From IMG/VR virus record IMGVR_UViG_3300021335_000003: a DNA stretch of 64,000 nucleotides. One strand, 5' to 3'. The DNA is from a virus. The notes under the pieces are model-generated. The model had not been told where the DNA came from. It was given only the letters and a program-made list of their open reading frames with translations, and ran no database searches. Shown piece by piece: positions 42,426 through 60,137 of this stretch; the stretch's first letter is position 1, and each line of letters starts with the position of its first letter. A program made the translations under genes and the position numbers.

Positions 42426-42788
42426 TTAAATAGCTGTTAAACGTAAAACTGTATCGGTTGAATCGTCTTCTAAATCCCAAGTGTAACGATTGCTATCAAA
42501 ATCTACTGCTGTTCTGTTGAATAGTTTTTTGATAACTCTGCGCACTCCGCCGGCATCAAAACCTTCGATAACCATTTCGCCTGCTGCTACACTATCAGTT
42601 GCTTTGTTAACCAAACGGCAAACTGCTGTTGCTGTAGCACCGTTGTTTGACACTGTGAACTTGTTTGTTCCTCTTTGGTCTACAATGTATGCTTGCTCGT
42701 CAATACCGCCGCCAACATATGCACGTACTGTGATATTCGTTGCGTCAGCCGGATCTCCGAAATTTCTTTTATTTACTGGACGTCCCAT
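42426..42788 (-). CDS. Hypothetical late protein
   Basis: AAGGAG RBS; late box at 42874-42880. Confidence 0.7.
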   Translation of the reverse strand: MGRPVNKRNFGDPADATNITVRAYVGGGIDEQAYIVDQRGTNKFTVSNNGATATAVCRLVNKATDSVAAGEMVIEGFDAGGVRRVIKKLFNRTAVDFDSNRYTWDLEDDSTDTVLRLTAI

Positions 42789-42911
42789 TTGTTTCTCCTT
42801 TGTTACGTTCTAAGTAATACGCGGTTGGTCTTCCGCATAAGTCCTCATCTAGAGGTTCTCTCTATGACAATAGTATTTATCAAATTAAATAAAATGGGTT
42901 ATAATGTCCGT

Positions 42912-52992: not shown

Positions 52993-53826
52993 ATGGAAAA
53001 CTCTCAAAGTCCATTAAGACAATTTCAAAGACAACCAAAACTTTATATTGATTTACCAAGTCAAGGAAAATGGTATAATGAAAACATTGTTGCTGATGGA
53101 ACTTCAACTTCATTAGCAGTTTTTAGTATGACTGCAAACGACGAAATTGGATTTAAAACACCAGATGCAATGGTTAATGGTGAAGCAACAGTAAGAAATG
53201 TAAAAAGTTGCATTCCTGCAATATTAGATCCTTGGAGTATTAGAACTGTTGATACAGACACTATTTTGCTTGCAATACGTATTGCCTCATATGGACAAAT
53301 GATGTCAGTAAGTAGTCCTTGTAAAAAATGTTCAGAAGATAATGCGTACGATGTTGATTTACAAAATTATCTTGATTATTTTGCAATGAAAACTTATAGT
53401 GATACAGTTGTATATGAAAACTTTACTGTAAAATTGCATCCTTTGACATATAGACAATGGAATGAAATACAGAAAAAACAAACAGGTTTCCAACGGGCGT
53501 TGAACTTTCAAGTGCCACAAATAAAAGACGAAGACCAAAAAGAAGAAGCAATACAAAATATCATTGATCAAATTAATGAACTTACTGTATTGAGTATTTT
53601 AGATCAAGTTGCAAGTATTGAAGTTGATGGTCAAATAGAAACTGACAAACAAGAAATTGTCAATTTTTTAAACAACCAAGACGTAAAATTCTTTCATGCT
53701 ATTAAAGCACAAATTGAACAAAATATCAAAGAATGGGAAATACCCACAGAAGATATCAAGTGTGAAAAGTGCGGTTATGAAGATCAAATAAAAGTTTCGT
53801 TGGATCAATCAAATTTTTTCGCATAA
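52993..53826 (+). CDS. Baseplate hub assembly protein, gp26-like
   Basis: P..YIDLPS.G, MTA.DE, D.D.ILLAIRIASYG, two CxxC (CKKC, CEKC), ends NFFA. Confidence 0.75.
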   Translation: MENSQSPLRQFQRQPKLYIDLPSQGKWYNENIVADGTSTSLAVFSMTANDEIGFKTPDAMVNGEATVRNVKSCIPAILDPWSIRTVDTDTILLAIRIASYGQMMSVSSPCKKCSEDNAYDVDLQNYLDYFAMKTYSDTVVYENFTVKLHPLTYRQWNEIQKKQTGFQRALNFQVPQIKDEDQKEEAIQNIIDQINELTVLSILDQVASIEVDGQIETDKQEIVNFLNNQDVKFFHAIKAQIEQNIKEWEIPTEDIKCEKCGYEDQIKVSLDQSNFFA

Positions 53827-54053: not shown

Positions 54054-55580
54054 TTAGACTGTTGCAGGTTGCGGTTGAGCTGCTGCATTGTCACTGTCCA
54101 TTTTATTAGATATAGCAGTGTCAGCAGCATCTTGAGAGGTGTCTTTTTGTTCTAGCGTCATTATTGAATTTAACAAATCCTCACGTTTTTGTTGTGGCAT
54201 GTAAGGAACAAATTTTGTTTTATCACCTTTAGGAAATAGCAGAGCTCCAAAAACTTTTTTAGCCCACTCGCTTTCAGAAAAATATTCGCCATCAGGTCCT
54301 TTATTAATCGTTTGTTCAATGGTTAATTTATCTGCTAAGAAACCTGTGCCAAATGCTCCAGCAAGTGATTCGTCTGCTGCTTTTAACAAAAAGTCAAAAC
54401 CTTGACCTAAATATCCAAAATAATCGCCCAACCAAGAGTTTTGAAGTATTTGTGCTACTAATCTTTGTACTGGAGGAAGTGAAACAACTATATAGAATAA
54501 AACATCCAATCCTTGTCCTGCAATTATGCCAAGTATTCTACCTGCTCGGTTACCAGCAAGTGCTCCTTTGGCTCCTCCTGCTATAGTGCCTACAGGTCCT
54601 ACTCCAGTGCCTACCACAGCACCACCGACTGCACCTACTCCTGTTCCAATTGTTGCTAATCCTATTTTTATTGCAGCTCTAACCCAACTAGTAAGTATTT
54701 TAATTGATTTAATATCTTTTAAAAGAGTTACTGCAAATATACCAAATTGAATAACAGCTTGACCTTGCAAAATACTATACTCTTCAGCTAATTTGCCATC
54801 TGGATCGCCTGTTTCAATTATTTCAGCTTCTACCTGTGCTAAGGCAAAACTAATACCATAAAACAACATCAACGCTGCAAGAGCTTTTCCAACTACTGCT
54901 CCTGCCTTTCCTGAGAAAGCTGCAAAATTAGAAGATTGTACCCATCTTCCTATTTTGGTATTCCCTAGTTGTTGTCCTGGTGCAATTCCTTTTTTAAATT
55001 CATCTAATGTCATAGATGTAATTTTGCGACTAATAGGATTGTTTCTAATTTTTCCTTCGATGCTTTTTGCGTCTATACCTGCATTTTTTAAAAATTTAGC
55101 TTGCTTTTTCTTAAGTGCATTTGTAATGTCTTTGGGCTTTTTTCCTTCAGCTTCAAGTTGCTCAATGTACTTTTGTAATCTAGCAGCGTCATCTCCGTCA
55201 TTTAAAGTTACAATGCTTTTTCCATCAGGCATAACGACCTTCCAACGATTGGTATCAGTTTGGAACATGCCAGGTGCTAACTTAACATTTGGAGGCACTG
55301 CTTTTGCAGTAGGAGCAGGAGTTTTTGTTCTAGGAGAACTATTTCTTCCACTGCTAGATTTAGTAGTGGTCTTGGTATCTTTAGGTTTAGGAGGAGTTGG
55401 ATTCCTCAACTGGTCTGCTTTGATATTTGCTTGATTTTTTGTTTTATGACTTGAAATCAAAACATTTGGAGTCACAGTAGTATTATACACCCCCCATGTT
55501 CTTCCATTAGGATTTTTACGTATTTCAAATTTATCTTCTAAAAGAATTTGTGATTCAAAGATTAGTTCAGACAGTTTCAT
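54054..55580 (-). CDS. Hypothetical late protein with hydrophobic/glycine-zipper segments
   Basis: Perfect TATAAATA at 55586-55593; MKLSELIFES start; GTGVGAVGGAVVGTGVGPVGTIAGG. Confidence 0.65.
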   Translation of the reverse strand: MKLSELIFESQILLEDKFEIRKNPNGRTWGVYNTTVTPNVLISSHKTKNQANIKADQLRNPTPPKPKDTKTTTKSSSGRNSSPRTKTPAPTAKAVPPNVKLAPGMFQTDTNRWKVVMPDGKSIVTLNDGDDAARLQKYIEQLEAEGKKPKDITNALKKKQAKFLKNAGIDAKSIEGKIRNNPISRKITSMTLDEFKKGIAPGQQLGNTKIGRWVQSSNFAAFSGKAGAVVGKALAALMLFYGISFALAQVEAEIIETGDPDGKLAEEYSILQGQAVIQFGIFAVTLLKDIKSIKILTSWVRAAIKIGLATIGTGVGAVGGAVVGTGVGPVGTIAGGAKGALAGNRAGRILGIIAGQGLDVLFYIVVSLPPVQRLVAQILQNSWLGDYFGYLGQGFDFLLKAADESLAGAFGTGFLADKLTIEQTINKGPDGEYFSESEWAKKVFGALLFPKGDKTKFVPYMPQQKREDLLNSIMTLEQKDTSQDAADTAISNKMDSDNAAAQPQPATV

Positions 55581-55599
55581 ATTACTATTTATATGTTAT

Positions 55600-56005
55600 T
55601 AGTTGAACTACGTTCAACTGTGTTATCGCTATCGCTCAACACGATGTTTTTTAAGGCATATGCAAAGCATATGCTTTTAGTATCATTCAGATTGTGAAGT
55701 CATAATTCGCCCGTTGCCGGGCGAAGGTAGCTTTTGAGCTTCATTCGAGTCGCTTCAGCCATCTTGTTAAAAGAGATTCAACTTATGTTGTCGGAGGCGG
55801 TTGACCTGTATCCCCCTACTCTAGCTTCGTCATATCAACGGAAGGCAGTTATTCCCTAACAAGCGAAAACACTTACCACGTGGTTGCTTTTTCTCAGAGC
55901 CACTATCTTTTAAAGCCTATCGTATACTTCTTCACGTGAGCATTCCACACCACCGGCCACGAGCATTACCTCGGCTGGATCTTGGAGTTTAATTAGAGCT
56001 CAATA
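55600..56005 (-). ncRNA. Candidate large structured RNA (or structured DNA element) downstream of GIY-YIG nuclease
   Basis: ~400 nt without an ORF, visibly more GC-rich than other spacers, many helices including a GCAA tetraloop hairpin and long-range G-U-containing pairing. Confidence 0.6.
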
Positions 56006-56011
56006 TATAGC

Positions 56012-56437
56012 CTATTTGTGTTCTAGTAGTGCCTGGCGTAATTTATTTGAACCACCAACTCTTACATTGATTATGCCATTGTAGTATTCGTCTGTTTCTA
56101 ATACTCGCCTGTCAAACTGTTCTCGTGCTTCAATGTAACTCATTTCTGCTCTGCTTTTGCAGAAGTAAAGTATTTCACGAGTAAAGTTTTTTTCGCCTAG
56201 TGTTTTTACATCTTCGTTCAGTCTATCTGAACTTCCCCAGTATTCACGCCAATCGCTTTCTTTGTAGCCTCGACGCTTGTTCTTTTTGCCTTTTAATGGT
56301 GGCTTGGTTGTTTTAAATTTTGCTAACTTCTTGCCTACGTATTTTTGTTTTGTCTTTTTGTTTGTAATTAGATATACAAACCCTTCGTATTCGTCAGGTA
56401 TTGATTCTACAGTTTTGCCTTTGTATGTCCAACTCAT
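56012..56437 (-). CDS. Minimal GIY-YIG (Seg-like) endonuclease, catalytic domain only
   Basis: GFVYLITN......YVGKK, YWGSS, F.REIL, catalytic E (YIEAREQ), YYNG. Confidence 0.88.
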   Translation of the reverse strand: MSWTYKGKTVESIPDEYEGFVYLITNKKTKQKYVGKKLAKFKTTKPPLKGKKNKRRGYKESDWREYWGSSDRLNEDVKTLGEKNFTREILYFCKSRAEMSYIEAREQFDRRVLETDEYYNGIINVRVGGSNKLRQALLEHK

Positions 56438-56455: not shown

Positions 56456-58111
56456 TTAAATTTGTGATTCCGTTTTTGGTTTGCCTACGTGTGATTGCCA
56501 ACCCTCACGACTAAACATTTTACTGAAATAGTCCAAGGGCCATTTGTTTAAGCCTTTGTCGTGTTCTTGTACATTGTTATACATTTGCATAAACTTGTCA
56601 ATCGATTTTTTATTTTTATTTGCTTGATTTTCGTGTGTTGATTTTTCATTACGCATTCTTGTAATGTACTCTTGTTGTTGTTCAGCTGTTGATTTTACAG
56701 GCCAACTTGCTAGGTCTTCTTTAGTCATCCAGTTGTTTGCAATATCAATCCAATTTACATCTGGAAATGCTGTGCGGTATCCTATGACACCATCCATACA
56801 GTTTGCCTTGTCATAATATTTTTGTTTTACAAGTTCTTTGTGATTTAGTTCTTCGCCAATGCGTCTCATGTCATTCCAAAAATGATTGTCGCCTTTGGGT
56901 GATAATGTGTAATGCACAGCAAGATAATCTGCTATGTCTTGGAAATAGTGATCCATTTTTTCATTGTAATAGTTTTTATCATAGTCACGTTGCAACATCC
57001 ATGCAATGTTTTTGATGCTTGCAATGATACTGACTACTGCGTTTGCTTCTAGTGGATCAACAAAACTTGCTGCCATACCAATAGCAAAACAGTTTCCAAC
57101 ATTTGGTTTTGCCAATCTACCTGGCTTCCATTTTAACTGTTTAGGCGGACGTAGATTCCTGCCTTCTACTTGTTCCAACAACCAATCTCTTGCTTCGTCG
57201 TCACTGAAGTATTCATCACTGTAAATAATACCTGTGCCTATTCTAGCATCTAAACAGATTTGGAACTGCCAGCCCATGTCTTGTCTAATACTTCTTGTGT
57301 AATTTACATATTCAGCATCTTTGTCTTTGTAACTAATAGGACATACCCAAGCACTGTTCATTTTGTTAGCAGGTGTTTGGATAAACTCATCTGTTAGTTT
57401 GCCAATCAACAACCTACCTAAACCTGTGCAGTCCATCCACAAGTCGCTGGTAACTTCTGTTCCATCTTCTAGTACAATACTGCTGATGCCGTTGTCATCT
57501 GTATTCACAGTTTCGATATGCGCAATAGTTTCCACTACGCCATATTCTTTACAAACATTTTCAATCAGCCAAGGCGCACATTTTTCTGCATCAATATGAT
57601 AAGCATAGGTTGCTGTTGCACTGATCAAATAGTTTCCGTTGTCGTCAAACGGCATCTTTCTATCTTTGAGATAATGATAACCTTCACCGTTGTGATGATA
57701 AACATCCAAGTCTGGTGCTGCGCCACTGCGATACACATCCAACCAAACATCGCTTGTTCTCAAGTCATCTGGTCCAACACTGCAAACATTTTTCCAAGTT
57801 GTTTCTTTGTTGTGCCAGTTGCTCCAATGGAACATTCTAATTACATCAGGCTCGCCTTCAGCTGTGTCAGTCCAGTTTTCCATACGATTAGCATATTTAA
57901 AAACTGCATTTGTTTCTCGCATAAAACGTTTTTCATCTACGCCTAATGCACCAAGCACACCCGGCAAGTGTGGTGTAATACTTTCACCTACACCAATTGT
58001 AGGAACCTTGTTGCTATGAATCATTTCAACTGTAGAGTTTGGAAGTTCTTTTTTTAAAAATGCACTTGTGAGTGCTCCTGCAAATCCACCACCTACAACT
58101 GTAATCTTCAT
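56456..58111 (-). CDS. Flavin-dependent tryptophan-halogenase-like protein
   Basis: VVGGGFAG, TIGVGES, YAYHIDA, D.WMDCTG, GWQFQI (WxWxIP variant), F.DPLEA, HY. Confidence 0.85.
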   Translation of the reverse strand: MKITVVGGGFAGALTSAFLKKELPNSTVEMIHSNKVPTIGVGESITPHLPGVLGALGVDEKRFMRETNAVFKYANRMENWTDTAEGEPDVIRMFHWSNWHNKETTWKNVCSVGPDDLRTSDVWLDVYRSGAAPDLDVYHHNGEGYHYLKDRKMPFDDNGNYLISATATYAYHIDAEKCAPWLIENVCKEYGVVETIAHIETVNTDDNGISSIVLEDGTEVTSDLWMDCTGLGRLLIGKLTDEFIQTPANKMNSAWVCPISYKDKDAEYVNYTRSIRQDMGWQFQICLDARIGTGIIYSDEYFSDDEARDWLLEQVEGRNLRPPKQLKWKPGRLAKPNVGNCFAIGMAASFVDPLEANAVVSIIASIKNIAWMLQRDYDKNYYNEKMDHYFQDIADYLAVHYTLSPKGDNHFWNDMRRIGEELNHKELVKQKYYDKANCMDGVIGYRTAFPDVNWIDIANNWMTKEDLASWPVKSTAEQQQEYITRMRNEKSTHENQANKNKKSIDKFMQMYNNVQEHDKGLNKWPLDYFSKMFSREGWQSHVGKPKTESQI

Positions 58112-58365
58112 TTTTTCTTTTTCCTTTCGTGGTTAGCCTTGCCAATATTGACAGCCCACTTGCCGCTGGCACGTATTTCGGCTAACTCCTCTTTGTATCT
58201 CTGTTTAGCCTCTTCGGCTCTTTCTCTGCATAAGGTAACTAGCTCACGTAGCTCTCTACGTATTCGTCTTTTACTACGCTCACTTGGCAAACGTTCGAAG
58301 TCTTCGCTTGCTGCCAAGTAGTCTAGTACCTTTTGCATTAATTTATCATGCGTGTCGTCTGTCAT
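58108..58365 (-). CDS. Hypothetical protein
   Basis: ORF coupled to gp46 and the halogenase by 4-nt overlaps. Confidence 0.65.
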   Translation of the reverse strand: MTDDTHDKLMQKVLDYLAASEDFERLPSERSKRRIRRELRELVTLCRERAEEAKQRYKEELAEIRASGKWAVNIGKANHERKKKK

Positions 58366-60137
58366 TCTACAATATCGATATCGTTTTCATATGATGTAAA
58401 GCCATTCTCTTTGATAACTTTCATTACATGATTGACTCTACCAACAAGTTCGTCTTTGTGTGAGATGAGGAAAACATTTTTGCTACGCTCTCTACCCATC
58501 TTCTTGAGTACAGCGAGCGCATTTTCAACACCAGCAGTGTCCATACCTGAGTCAATAAGCTCGTCAATGAACAACAAGTTGATGCCTTGATACAACGATT
58601 CCCAAACATCACGGAATGCAAAACTCATGCCTAGTATCAGCCTGTTGCGTTCGCCTCTAGATAAGTTATCAAAGTCCAAGTCTTGTCCTAGTTGTGTAAT
58701 CTCAACTGACAAATCATTTTGGAATTCTACTTGATGTGGTAAGCCTAGTTTGTCTAAATAGTATGTGAGCCTATTGTTCAAGTACGCCAAGTTCTGATCA
58801 ATGATCTTTTTGCGGATGAACGAGTCTTTGTTTGTCAAAAGTTTCAGTAGAAACTCTTGATGTTCACGCAAGTTGGTAAGATCATTTACAGGTTGCCAAT
58901 CAATTTCTTGTAGTGCTGTTGTCTTCAAGTCCTCAATTTGTGCTTCGTAAGGATCTTCTTCTTGCGTTTTACTTATCAGTGTTTGTTTTAAATTATCTAC
59001 ATTGTTTCTGTGTTCATATGCTTCTTTGGCACTCTCATAAAACGTGTTAGGACGTCCGTTGATGTCACCAATTTCGTTGAGAAACTCCATAGTTGCTTCT
59101 AATTTGTCAGCAACTTCTGTTTGATAAGCAAGTGCATCACTTAATTCTTTTTGTTTTTTAGTTTCGATCTCTGCTTTCTTGTCTGCATGAAGCGTTTGAC
59201 CGCAAGTGTAACAAATAGCATCGTCAAGTTCTTTGATATCCTTTTCTGCTTTGTCAACACCTTTGGTTGCTCGCATCAATGCTGTTTCCAGTGTTGCTTT
59301 CTCTTTGTTCAAACTAGTTATACGATTATTCAATTCTGTCCAGTTGGTAAGTTTGTCGTGTGCTTCTAATTCTGCATCAATATCTAGTTTTTCTAGTTCT
59401 TCAAGTGCAGTTTGCATTCTATCTGCATCAGTTTTGCGTTTTGCAACCCAAGCACGTTGTCTTCCAGCAAGTGTTTCAATACTTTGTTCGATCTTTTTGT
59501 TACTTGCTTCTATTGCATTGATCTTTAGTGTTTCTTCTGTGATAAAGTCTTTGGTTTGTTTAACTTTTTCCTTCAACAAGTCTGCTTTTTCAGTAAGAAT
59601 GGTAATACCAAGTAGCTGTTCAATGATTGCACGTTGGTCATTTGCTCTCATACTGAGAAAAGGCTCTGTGTAAGTGTTGAGTGCAACAATATGTTTGAAC
59701 ATATCGTGACTCATATCTAACAAACTGTCAATATCTTTTTGTGTTTGACGACTATCGCCTTGTGATTCGTCAATATCTTCTTTTTGTTCGTGGTCATTTA
59801 TGTAAAACTTGAGAACATTTGGCGATCGACCACGTTCGATCCGATATTGATTGTTGCCTTTCTCAAAGTTAAGGGTAACCAACATGCCTTTGGAATTGGT
59901 CTTGTTAATAAGATTGTTCCGTTTGATGTTGGTTAGTGCTTGGCCGTACAAGGCGTAGGATAATGCATTGATTATCGTTGTTTTACCTGTACCGTTGCGT
60001 GATCCTGTATCGTCACCTCCTTGGTCTAAGTTTTCACCAAGCACAAGAGTGAGTTGCTCCTTGTTGAAGTCAACTGCTTGGGTAACATTACCCACACTCA
60101 TAAAGTTTTTTACTGTTAGGTCTTTAATTTTAATCAT
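58362..60137 (-). CDS. gp46: Recombination endonuclease ATPase subunit (Rad50/SbcC-like)
   Basis: KNFMSVGN, NGTGKTT, CYTC zinc hook, LSRGE signature, LLFIDE, ISH. Confidence 0.95.
   Translation of the reverse strand: MIKIKDLTVKNFMSVGNVTQAVDFNKEQLTLVLGENLDQGGDDTGSRNGTGKTTIINALSYALYGQALTNIKRNNLINKTNSKGMLVTLNFEKGNNQYRIERGRSPNVLKFYINDHEQKEDIDESQGDSRQTQKDIDSLLDMSHDMFKHIVALNTYTEPFLSMRANDQRAIIEQLLGITILTEKADLLKEKVKQTKDFITEETLKINAIEASNKKIEQSIETLAGRQRAWVAKRKTDADRMQTALEELEKLDIDAELEAHDKLTNWTELNNRITSLNKEKATLETALMRATKGVDKAEKDIKELDDAICYTCGQTLHADKKAEIETKKQKELSDALAYQTEVADKLEATMEFLNEIGDINGRPNTFYESAKEAYEHRNNVDNLKQTLISKTQEEDPYEAQIEDLKTTALQEIDWQPVNDLTNLREHQEFLLKLLTNKDSFIRKKIIDQNLAYLNNRLTYYLDKLGLPHQVEFQNDLSVEITQLGQDLDFDNLSRGERNRLILGMSFAFRDVWESLYQGINLLFIDELIDSGMDTAGVENALAVLKKMGRERSKNVFLISHKDELVGRVNHVMKVIKENGFTSYENDIDIVE

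What the first reader, a model, noticed from the sequence alone, without database searches (positions are those of the whole stretch)
55600..56437. Minimal GIY-YIG nuclease directly followed by a ~400-nt highly structured non-coding region: candidate nuclease-RNA system
Seen: the 141-aa GIY-YIG ORF is only a catalytic domain plus a very basic insertion (KFKTTKPPLKGKKNKRRGYK), with no recognisable C-terminal DNA-binding module. No terminator follows its stop. Instead ~400 ORF-free nt follow, in a genome where most spacers are under ~120 nt. On the minus strand these pair into many helices: GCCGAG/CUCGuGGC, GUGG-GCU..AGC-CCAC (55880-55903), a long-range CUUGUUAGGG/UUUUAACAAG helix (55853-55863 with 55763-55774), GGGGG/CCUCC enclosing GGU-CA-ACC (55793-55816), CAAC-AUAA-GUUG, and UUCGCCCG-GCAA-CGGGCGAA (55706-55725) inside UGAAG/CUUCA. 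The G-U pairs and GNRA loop favour the strand co-oriented with the nuclease. Known: Seg/I-TevI-type GIY-YIG enzymes take specificity from appended DNA-binding domains, while HEARO/OMEGA systems pair a compact nuclease with an adjacent large RNA. Inference: the RNA may be a scaffold or guide for the nuclease. Alternatives are an independent large ncRNA or ribozyme, or a replication-origin/packaging element.
Basis: partly seen in the sequence, partly recalled or inferred. Interest (0 to 1): 0.88.

Follow-up and report, generated by a model that had tools for sequence, protein, structure and literature searches.

The report
Twin-box structured RNA behind phage nuclease
The gene-free stretch behind a small DNA-cutting enzyme gene of this uncultured aquatic T4-like phage encodes a real, knotted non-coding RNA of about 355 bases from a family missing from RNA catalogues; it carries one short word twice, its job is unknown, and the enzyme looks like a neighbour, not a partner.

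Summary
Observation confirmed. The 141-aa ORF (56012-56437, minus) is a SegE-type GIY-YIG nuclease. The 430 ORF-free bases after it are GC-enriched.

They encode a structured RNA on the same strand, about 56011-55656. It is homologous in more than 300 fetched viral contigs. On 32 close relatives, 85 pairs are 97% paired, and 17 pairs change on both sides against 7.3 in shuffles. The 3' core also covaries across subfamilies, and a loop-to-tail pseudoknot is kept. G-U pairs fix the strand.

There is no Rfam hit in the window. Relatives carry Rfam Polynucleobacter-1 (RF01718) as an alternative 5' domain on the same core.

The hallmark is two boxes (GAAUGA at 55741-55746 and 55683-55688). They are identical to each other in every genome but take 12 forms between genomes. 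I found no complementary third box.

The nuclease-guide reading is not supported:
- The same RNA family sits in two bacterial contigs with no nuclease nearby.
- One phage has a PD-(D/E)XK nuclease in the GIY-YIG gene's place.
- Homologous GIY-YIG genes in isolates have no such RNA.

Function remains unknown. This scan has met the same family many times before on other DNA ("twin-box RNA").

The parts
56012..56437 (-). SegE-type GIY-YIG nuclease gene, 141 aa, catalytic domain only
   Evidence: Pfam PF19835, E 4.9e-33. Y22, Y33, G35, E103 and N120 are invariant in 83 homologues. The fold is closest to the I-TevI catalytic domain, Z 8.3.
55656..56011 (-). Twin-box structured RNA, about 355 nt, from the nuclease stop codon to the hairpin after box 2. 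The true 5' and 3' ends are not mapped.
   Evidence: Homologous in all downstream regions of GIY-YIG relatives. 85 pairs are 97% paired, with 17 double-change pairs against 7.3 in shuffles. Strand set by G-U pairs.
55937..56002 (-). 5' domain: one long irregular hairpin (UGAGC/GCUCA closing helix, UCCA/UGGA, GCCGAG/CUCGuGGC). In some relatives the Polynucleobacter-1 motif takes its place.
   Evidence: Three double-change pairs in the closing helix: CG/UA, AU/GC, GC/AU. L073 has RF01718 at this position.
55880..55903 (-). Hairpin GUGG...CCAC with a small inner stem
   Evidence: GUGG/CCAC, GCGG/CCGC, UGGG/CCCA and GCAGG/CCUGC in relatives.
55851..55870 (-). Hairpin GUUUUC/GGGAAU. Its loop 55857-55863 (CUUGUUA) pairs with 55763-55769 (UAACAAG): pseudoknot 1.
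   Evidence: Hairpin: GU/GC/AU, UA/AU and CG/UA pair types. Loop pairing: 7 pairs 100% paired, with 11 G-C to G-U or A-U to G-U changes.
55793..55816 (-). Hairpin GGGGG/CCUCC. Its loop GGUCA (55802-55806) pairs with UGACU (55698-55702): pseudoknot 2.
   Evidence: G-U 20 / A-U 12 in the stem. Pseudoknot 99.2% paired in 80 sequences of all subfamilies, GU 70 / GC 7.
55779..55790 (-). Variable stem CAAC-AUAA-GUUG, replaced by hairpins of 30-70 nt in relatives
   Evidence: Alignment A3, columns 250-307.
55741..55746 (-). Box 1, GAAUGA, preceded by ACUC
55706..55725 (-). Hairpin UUCGCCCG-GCAA-CGGGCGAA (GNRA loop) between the two boxes
   Evidence: Seven of 9 pairs change on both sides between subfamilies.
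55683..55688 (-). Box 2, GAAUGA, preceded by AUCU. Identical to box 1 over 6 nt here and over 7-10 nt in relatives.
55656..55674 (-). Hairpin GCAUAUGC-UUU-GCAUAUGC, 8 nt after box 2. Probable 3' end of the RNA; the U tail is weak in this copy.
   Evidence: A hairpin at this place in 106 of 116 distinct relatives, with a U-rich tail in 76 of the 106.
55601..55642 (-). Two small conserved hairpins between the RNA and the late promoter (GUGUU..AACAC around GCGAUAGC, and AGUUGAAC-GUA-GUUCAACU)
   Evidence: Covarying stems in relatives. Role not tested.
55586..55593 (-). T4-type late promoter box TATAAATA, 5 nt before the ATG of the next gene
   Evidence: Read from the sequence. TAAATA is conserved in relatives about 25 nt before the ATG.
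54054..55580 (-). Downstream late gene (508 aa, no family). Its N-terminus is conserved and the rest is hypervariable among relatives. Context only.

Best explanation
**What it is**
The spacer is a gene for an autonomous, highly structured non-coding RNA of about 355 nt. It is transcribed from the minus strand, probably as the tail of the early gp46...GIY-YIG transcript, and probably ends at the hairpin 55656-55674.

**Architecture**
- A variable 5' domain.
- A conserved core of about 150 nt held together by at least two pseudoknots.
- The core presents two single-stranded copies of the same short word (GAAUGA here). One copy lies in a multiloop in front of a GNRA hairpin. The other lies 8 nt in front of the terminal hairpin.

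**How it probably works (inferred, not shown)**
The two words stay identical to each other while changing between genomes. No cis partner co-varies with them. My best reading is that both are read by base pairing with the same trans partner, or with two copies of it, so the RNA acts as a two-site scaffold, sponge or clamp for that partner. The partner and the biological role are not identified.

**The nuclease**
The GIY-YIG gene is a conserved syntenic neighbour, a stand-alone nuclease of a very common family. It is not an RNA-guided enzyme.

**What is shown:** a real RNA, its strand, the family, the pseudoknot, the twin boxes, and independence from the nuclease in other genomes.
For: **Conservation**
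- About 60 distinct downstream regions of GIY-YIG relatives are ORF-free over 450-650 nt, GC-enriched and all linked by homology.
- 105 of 105 testable subfamily-B contigs keep the arrangement.
- 105 of 120 contigs with a Polynucleobacter-type 5' domain keep it too.

**Structure**
- Alignment A3: 97% of 2707 cells paired. 17 pairs have double changes against 7.3 +/- 1.4 in shuffles (0/500). Slid controls give 0-5 such pairs and 42-46% pairing.
- Core model R1 hits the window once, 55679-55830 minus strand, 90.8 bits.
- Cross-subfamily alignment A4: 19 double-change pairs against 11.7; covariation score 0.272 against 0.115 (0/500). The pseudoknot, which was not in the model, is 99.2% paired.
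- Strand: seven pairs are mostly G-U.

**Twin boxes**
- 12 six-nt variants, each the same in both copies.
- Each variable position of box 1 has its highest mutual information with the same position of box 2, equal to its entropy at five of six positions, with no third column close.

**Autonomy**
- L309 and L356, bacterial contigs with an integrase/Fic island and with a His-kinase/type IV pilus context. Both have RF01718 (46 and 64 bits) followed by twin boxes, and no GIY-YIG homologue.
- L389 has a PD-(D/E)XK nuclease gene instead.

**RNA libraries**
Metatranscriptome libraries of three studies hold the stretch.
Against: - No transcript ends, strand or abundance could be read from the RNA runs, which are contigs only. 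DNA carry-over is not excluded.
- No promoter of its own was found.
- The trans partner is hypothetical. No complementary 10-mer stands out in the 64-kb window or in a 105-kb relative. Words of 6-7 nt are too short to search for.
- Within the close phage clade the RNA is never seen without the GIY-YIG gene, so a functional link there is not excluded.
- Several helices around the boxes have competing alternatives: UGAAG/CUUCA against GUGAAG/CUUCAC, and AGAG/CUCU against UAGA/UCUG. A conformational switch is therefore possible.
- A3 is shallow (81% mean column identity). A4 is fitted to the model's structure.
Confidence: 0.6

Rival explanations
1. **Nuclease-RNA system.** The RNA binds the adjacent small nuclease and guides or scaffolds it. 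The twin boxes would be short guides to two copies of a DNA word.
For: - Strict adjacency and co-orientation in every testable contig of the close clade and in 105 of 120 contigs of a more distant group.
- In L389 the gene in front of the RNA is again a small stand-alone nuclease, of another fold (PF24608). This could be read as an exchangeable effector.
- The GIY-YIG protein has no separate DNA-binding domain.
Against: - Bacterial copies have no nuclease gene next to them. The neighbours are a His kinase, an SDR, pilus genes, DUF6641 and Fic.
- L438 has an unassigned 197-aa gene in front of the RNA.
- L053-type loci have an ORF in between.
- Homologous nucleases in isolates lack the RNA. Thousands of same-sized relatives exist.
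- The boxes are only 6-10 nt.
- No Rfam HEARO or other OMEGA-type match.
- Adjacency is explained by vertical synteny: gp46 is 74-98% and GIY-YIG 83-99% identical across the same loci.
Confidence: 0.08
2. **Cis-acting element.** It would be a riboswitch- or attenuator-like switch, or a 3'-UTR stabiliser of the early transcript. The two boxes would be alternative partners of one segment, as in attenuators.
For: - Weinberg et al. 2010 (PMC2864571) scored Polynucleobacter-1 as a likely cis-regulatory RNA.
- Competing helices exist around both boxes.
- Box 2 lies 8 nt before a terminator-like hairpin.
- The RNA sits at the 3' end of an early operon, in front of a late gene.
Against: - No third segment co-varies with the boxes. 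An attenuator model needs one.
- A late promoter lies between the RNA and the next gene.
- Downstream genes differ completely between phages and bacteria.
- 350-500 nt with several pseudoknots is far larger than known attenuators.
Confidence: 0.12
3. **Self-assembling or self-processing RNA.** Either an RNA-only multimer like ROOL, GOLLD or OLE, or a ribozyme or processing substrate cut at two identical sites to release the roughly 58-nt segment between the boxes.
For: - Size, pseudoknots, carriage by phages and genomic islands, and unknown function resemble the ornate RNAs. Those were shown to form homo-oligomers (bioRxiv 10.1101/2024.12.08.627333, seen).
- Two identical words flank a conserved hairpin.
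Against: - No match to any Rfam ribozyme or ornate RNA family.
- The boxes are not self-complementary in most variants, so they cannot pair with each other.
- RNA contigs run across both boxes without joints there.
Confidence: 0.1
4. **DNA-level element.** A replication origin, packaging site or homing-endonuclease target, with the boxes as iterons.
For: - Direct repeats beside hairpins.
- Position next to recombination and nuclease genes.
- Many metagenome contigs break inside the region.
Against: - Long-range compensatory changes and dominant G-U pairs on one strand only point to RNA.
- The family also sits in an ordinary chromosomal context in bacteria.
- Contig breaks are expected where a conserved core is flanked by hypervariable DNA.
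Confidence: 0.04

Closest known systems
Polynucleobacter-1 RNA motif (Rfam RF01718; Weinberg et al. 2010, Genome Biol 11:R31, PMC2864571)
   Same: Relatives of this RNA carry the motif as their 5' domain, directly in front of the same twin-box core. These are L073 (71.8 bits), L356 (64.4 bits), L309 (46 bits) and more than 100 further viral contigs fetched with a pattern derived from the motif. The habitat is the same (fresh and estuarine water, Pseudomonadota) and the function is unknown.
   Different: - The window's copy has a different 5' domain, a single long hairpin, and gives no RF01718 match even at E <= 10.
- The Rfam model covers only 141 nt.
- The conserved twin-box core, the pseudoknots and the total length of 350-510 nt are not part of it.
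GOLLD, ROOL and OLE: large ornate RNAs (Rfam RF01998, RF03087, RF01071)
   Same: Large, multiply pseudoknotted, no known function, often carried by phages or mobile islands.
   Different: No sequence or structure match. None of these is known, to my knowledge, to carry two co-varying identical boxes. Oligomerisation was not tested here.
OMEGA/HEARO systems (IscB, IsrB or TnpB with omega RNA)
   Same: A compact nuclease gene next to a large structured RNA.
   Different: - The nuclease here is GIY-YIG, not RuvC/HNH.
- There is no long variable guide.
- No HEARO match.
- The RNA occurs without any nuclease gene in bacteria.
- Transposon ends were not looked for.
T4 Seg-type free-standing GIY-YIG endonucleases, such as SegB in the tRNA gene cluster and SegE (my knowledge of the T4 literature)
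   Same: The same protein family by Pfam (SegE_GIY-YIG). A small nuclease gene lies beside RNA genes in a T4-like genome.
   Different: Seg genes are sporadic and selfish. This gene is present in every relative and is as conserved as gp46. Homing was not tested.
Earlier notes of this scan on a 'twin-box structured RNA' (e1-5365248, e1-5766013, e1-5411554 and others; unpublished AI notes)
   Same: The same family and the same features.
   Different: This window is one more member. Its subfamily has the hairpin-type 5' domain and the box GAAUGA.

Membership tests
Polynucleobacter-1 RNA (RF01718) | Covariance-model score at or above the gathering score of 37 bits | tested here: not met
   No match in window 55400-56200 even at E <= 10, and none in the whole window. 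Met in relatives L073, L309 and L356.
Twin-box RNA family (not catalogued; defined in this scan) | Two copies of one 6-10-nt word, the first after ACUC and the second after AUCU, 30-110 nt apart | tested here: met
   GAAUGA at 55741-55746 and 55683-55688.
Twin-box RNA family (not catalogued; defined in this scan) | Conserved core with a loop GGUCA to UGAC pseudoknot and a GNRA-type hairpin between the boxes | tested here: met
   Core model R1 scores 90.8 bits, but the window was among the sequences the model was built from.
OMEGA / HEARO RNA-guided nucleases | IscB, IsrB or TnpB (RuvC-type) nuclease | tested here: not met
   The adjacent protein is GIY-YIG.
OMEGA / HEARO RNA-guided nucleases | Omega RNA family match and a variable guide of about 15 nt or more at one end | tested here: not met
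   No Rfam match. The ends of the RNA are conserved or structured, and only the 6-10-nt boxes vary.
Group I intron with an intron-encoded GIY-YIG endonuclease | Rfam group I match and a host gene split into two exons | tested here: not met
   No Rfam match. The flanking ORFs are separate, complete genes that differ between relatives.
GIY-YIG nuclease superfamily, SegE-type (PF19835) | Profile match above the cut-off; GIY and YIG tyrosines, catalytic Glu and Asn conserved; GIY-YIG fold | tested here: met
   114.4 bits against a cut-off of 25. Y22, Y33, G35, E103 and N120 invariant. I-TevI catalytic domain Z 8.3, rmsd 2.6 over 82 residues. Catalysis itself cannot be tested with these tools.
T4 endonuclease II (DenA)-like host-DNA nuclease | Closest structural or sequence relative is EndoII (PDB 2WSH) | tested here: inconclusive
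   No sequence match in the PDB. Structural Z is 5.5, below I-TevI and the PD-T4-3 restriction endonuclease, PDB 9u75.

The most novel reading that the evidence does not exclude
The twin boxes are programmable recognition words. The RNA would bring two copies of one short nucleic-acid sequence together, like a two-armed guide or bridge. In phages it would work with whichever small nuclease is encoded in front of it: GIY-YIG in most, PD-(D/E)XK in L389. That would make it a new kind of RNA-directed DNA or RNA processing module with exchangeable effectors.
Probability: 0.07. Interest if true: 0.9.

Novelty: new variant of a known kind. Interest (0 to 1): 0.5.

Why it matters
If the family is what it seems, it is one of the larger orphan RNAs of aquatic phages and Pseudomonadota. 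It is present in hundreds of uncultured T4-like phages. Only a third of it was ever catalogued, as Polynucleobacter-1, and only for some members.

The two boxes stay identical to each other while drifting between genomes. This is a rare kind of covariation. It implies a reader that recognises sequence by pairing, which gives a concrete handle for experiments.

For this finding in particular, the result is a caution. A compact nuclease next to a big RNA is not by itself an RNA-guided system.

Tried and rejected
**Known RNA families and isolates**
- Rfam at gathering and permissive thresholds on the window and eight relatives: nothing for the window's RNA.
- tRNA or tmRNA: none.
- blastn against 50,697 phage isolate records: no match to the RNA.

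**Coding and folding**
- Coding potential at the boxes: the AUG-started mini-ORFs are not conserved.
- Single-sequence folding gives only z about -2 on both strands, so it does not decide the matter.

**Search for a partner of the boxes**
- Third box in cis: none found as perfect 6-mers, as 5-6-mers with G-U allowed, or by mutual information.
- Trans partner: the complement of the 10-nt box occurs only at chance level in the 64-kb window (24 hits against 32.6 expected). The same holds for a 105-kb relative (20 hits against 18 for the control).

**Collection scans**
- The first genome contigs pattern (core of subfamilies A and B) found nothing.
- The second pattern (Polynucleobacter-type) returned 120 mostly chance hits. 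Only two carried the RNA.

**The nuclease**
- T4 EndoII as the closest relative of the nuclease: not borne out.

**RNA runs**
- The runs are contigs only. They show that RNA libraries of three studies contain the stretch. They give no ends, strand or level. Coverage gaps and depth differences are not interpreted.

**Ideas set aside**
- K-turn, C/D-box, hammerhead, T-loop and start-codon readings of the boxes were considered by eye and dropped. Variants such as AUAA, GUGA and ACUUAA do not fit them.

**Tools**
- mafft-qinsi was not usable.

Full report
**1. What is there**

The window is part of an uncultured aquatic T4-like phage. It holds a gp46-type recombination nuclease subunit at 58362-60137, a T4 baseplate protein domain (PF12322) at 52993-53826, and a freshwater-2 RNA elsewhere.

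The ORF 56012-56437 (minus) encodes a 141-aa protein. It matches Pfam SegE_GIY-YIG over almost its whole length (E 4.9e-33). Its model (pLDDT 97.4) is closest to the I-TevI catalytic domain (Z 8.3), then to a GIY-YIG restriction enzyme, UvrC-N and T4 EndoII. Y22, Y33, G35, E103 and N120 are invariant in 83 diverse homologues.

The next 430 bases (55581-56011) have no ORF on that strand. GC is 0.42-0.47 against about 0.30-0.40 in the flanks. Neither Rfam nor ARAGORN finds anything there. Folding the single sequence is only marginally better than shuffles on either strand.

**2. Comparison shows a real RNA**

More than 598 viral contigs encode close relatives of the nuclease. In about 60 distinct loci the gene is followed by 450-650 nt that are free of co-oriented ORFs, GC-enriched and all linked by homology.

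There are two main subfamilies, plus forms whose first 140 nt are the Rfam motif Polynucleobacter-1 (L073, 71.8 bits). Subfamily A is the window's type. Subfamily B is the other main one.

I tested a hand-built structure with two pseudoknots on 32 distinct subfamily-A sequences:
- 97% of cells are paired.
- 17 of 85 pairs have changes on both sides, against 7.3 +/- 1.4 in shuffles (0/500).
- With the 3' partners slid, only 0-5 such pairs remain and pairing falls to 42-46%.
- Seven pairs are predominantly G-U. That fixes the RNA on the minus strand, the strand of the nuclease gene.

A covariance model of the 3' core (156 positions) hits the window exactly once (55679-55830, 90.8 bits). It also finds the distant L073 and the bacterial L309. 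On the resulting cross-subfamily alignment:
- 19 of 34 pairs have double changes against 11.7 in shuffles.
- The covariation score is 0.272 against 0.115.
- The pseudoknot GGUCA/UGAC, which was not in the model, is 99.2% paired.

Two caveats apply. The subfamily-A alignment is shallow. The second alignment is fitted to the model.

**3. Anatomy in the window** (offsets counted from the stop codon; window coordinates are in the parts list)

- A long 5' hairpin.
- A small hairpin, GUGG/CCAC.
- A hairpin whose loop CUUGUUA pairs 90 nt downstream (pseudoknot 1).
- A hairpin GGGGG/CCUCC whose loop GGUCA pairs with UGACU 100 nt downstream (pseudoknot 2).
- A variable stem.
- Box 1.
- A GNRA hairpin.
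- Box 2.
- A terminal hairpin.

A hairpin stands about 8 nt after box 2 in 106 of 116 distinct relatives. In 76 of those it has a U-rich tail, so the RNA probably ends there. The window's own U tail is weak.

Between this hairpin and the next gene lie two small conserved hairpins and a T4-type late promoter box. No sigma-70-type promoter precedes the RNA. It is therefore probably the tail of the early gp46-to-nuclease transcript.

Some helices near the boxes have competing alternatives that I could not resolve.

**4. The twin boxes**

I checked them independently.

- Box 1 follows ACUC and box 2 follows AUCU.
- In the window both read GAAUGA.
- Across about 330 fetched loci there are 12 six-nt variants: ACAUGA, ACAUAA, ACGUGA, GUAUGA, GAAUAA, GAAUGA, AGAUAA, AGAUGA, GGAUGA, GGAUAA, GCAUAA and ACUUAA. 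In each genome the two copies are the same, often over 7-10 nt.
- Each variable position of box 1 has its highest mutual information with the same position of box 2. At five of six positions this equals its entropy. No third column comes close.
- Positions 4 and 6 are always U and A.

Tests of other readings:
- The boxes are not conserved ORF starts.
- No complementary third box exists within -800 to +600 nt.
- The complement of the 10-nt word is at chance level in the 64-kb window and in a 105-kb relative.
- The first one to three box positions pair with different upstream strands in the two modules. The rest of each box has no partner in the RNA.

Identity without complementarity points to a common external reader that works by pairing. 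I could not identify it.

**5. Is the nuclease a partner?**

Points in favour:
- In the close clade the RNA is never seen without the gene. All testable subfamily-A contigs have it, as do 105 of 105 subfamily-B contigs.
- 105 of 120 contigs with a Polynucleobacter-type 5' domain have it directly upstream.

Points against:
- The whole locus is syntenic: gp46, a small ORF, an optional tryptophan-halogenase-like gene, the nuclease, the RNA, variable late genes, then baseplate genes. The nuclease is as conserved as gp46 (83-99% against 74-98% identity). Adjacency is what vertical descent gives.
- Two bacterial contigs carry Polynucleobacter-1 plus the twin-box core with no GIY-YIG homologue in 8 kb. 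One lies among a hybrid histidine kinase, an SDR and type IV pilus genes. The other lies in an island with an integrase and a Fic protein.
- In phage L389 (gp46 60% identical) a PD-(D/E)XK nuclease (PF24608, E 2.5e-29) takes the GIY-YIG gene's place. In L438 an unassigned 197-aa gene does.
- In L053-type loci a 101-aa ORF lies between the nuclease gene and the RNA.
- The homologous nuclease genes of Melnitz, P-HM1 and S-SRM01 have no such RNA after them.
- Same-sized stand-alone relatives number in the thousands. The lack of a DNA-binding domain is therefore normal for this family and is no argument for a guide.

The L389 case can be read two ways: as an exchangeable effector, or as a hot spot for small nuclease genes beside a conserved RNA gene. 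I keep the first as the novel case, at low probability.

**6. Expression**

Metatranscriptome libraries from three studies (marsh, seawater, salt marsh) contain contigs covering the nuclease gene and the RNA at 88-100% identity. These are contigs. They give no strand, ends or level, and DNA carry-over cannot be excluded. This is compatible with transcription but does not prove it.

**7. Verdict**

There is a large structured RNA on the predicted strand, but nothing shows that it guides or needs the nuclease, and several findings argue against that.

The RNA belongs to a widespread phage and bacterial family. It is absent from Rfam except for the Polynucleobacter-1 domain that some members carry. 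This scan has met it many times before on other DNA.

Its function is unknown. My best mechanistic guess is a scaffold that offers two copies of one word to a pairing partner. That is an inference.

Noticed in passing
window 42786-42857 (-): Match to the Rfam freshwater-2 RNA (RF02980): 51.6 bits against a gathering score of 49.9. It is the only Rfam hit in the window.
   Followed up: no
window 56456-58111 (-): A tryptophan-halogenase-like gene (PF04820, E 5.9e-78) lies between the gp46 region and the nuclease gene. It is present in only a minority of syntenic relatives, so it is an optional accessory gene.
   Followed up: partly
L389:3963-4484 (+): In a related phage a PD-(D/E)XK endonuclease (PF24608) occupies the GIY-YIG gene's position directly in front of the same RNA family. 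This is a non-homologous replacement of the neighbouring nuclease.
   Followed up: partly
L053:3419-3724 (+), also L041, L059, L061: An extra ORF of about 100 aa, with only a faint QSregVF_b-like match, is inserted between the nuclease gene and the RNA in some relatives.
   Followed up: partly
L309:3021-3523 and L356:3102-3618: Bacterial copies of the RNA (Polynucleobacter-1 domain plus twin-box core) lie in a genomic island with an integrase and Fic, and in a chromosomal context with a histidine kinase and type IV pilus genes. L356 has a 10-nt twin box, ACUUAAAGAG.
   Followed up: partly
viral contigs: Many metagenome contigs end inside or within 0-200 nt of the RNA. This probably reflects assembly breaks where a conserved core meets hypervariable flanks.
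   Followed up: no
window 54054-55580 (-): The downstream 508-aa late gene has a conserved N-terminus (MKLSELIFE...) and a glycine-rich hydrophobic middle, and matches no family. Its length and sequence vary widely among relatives.
   Followed up: no
window 55737-55746 and 55679-55688: In subfamily A the similarity of the two modules extends beyond the box, to about 20 nt (box, RYU, AAAAGC). Position 9 (C or U) usually changes in both copies together. Position 8 is always G in module 1 and A in module 2.
   Followed up: partly
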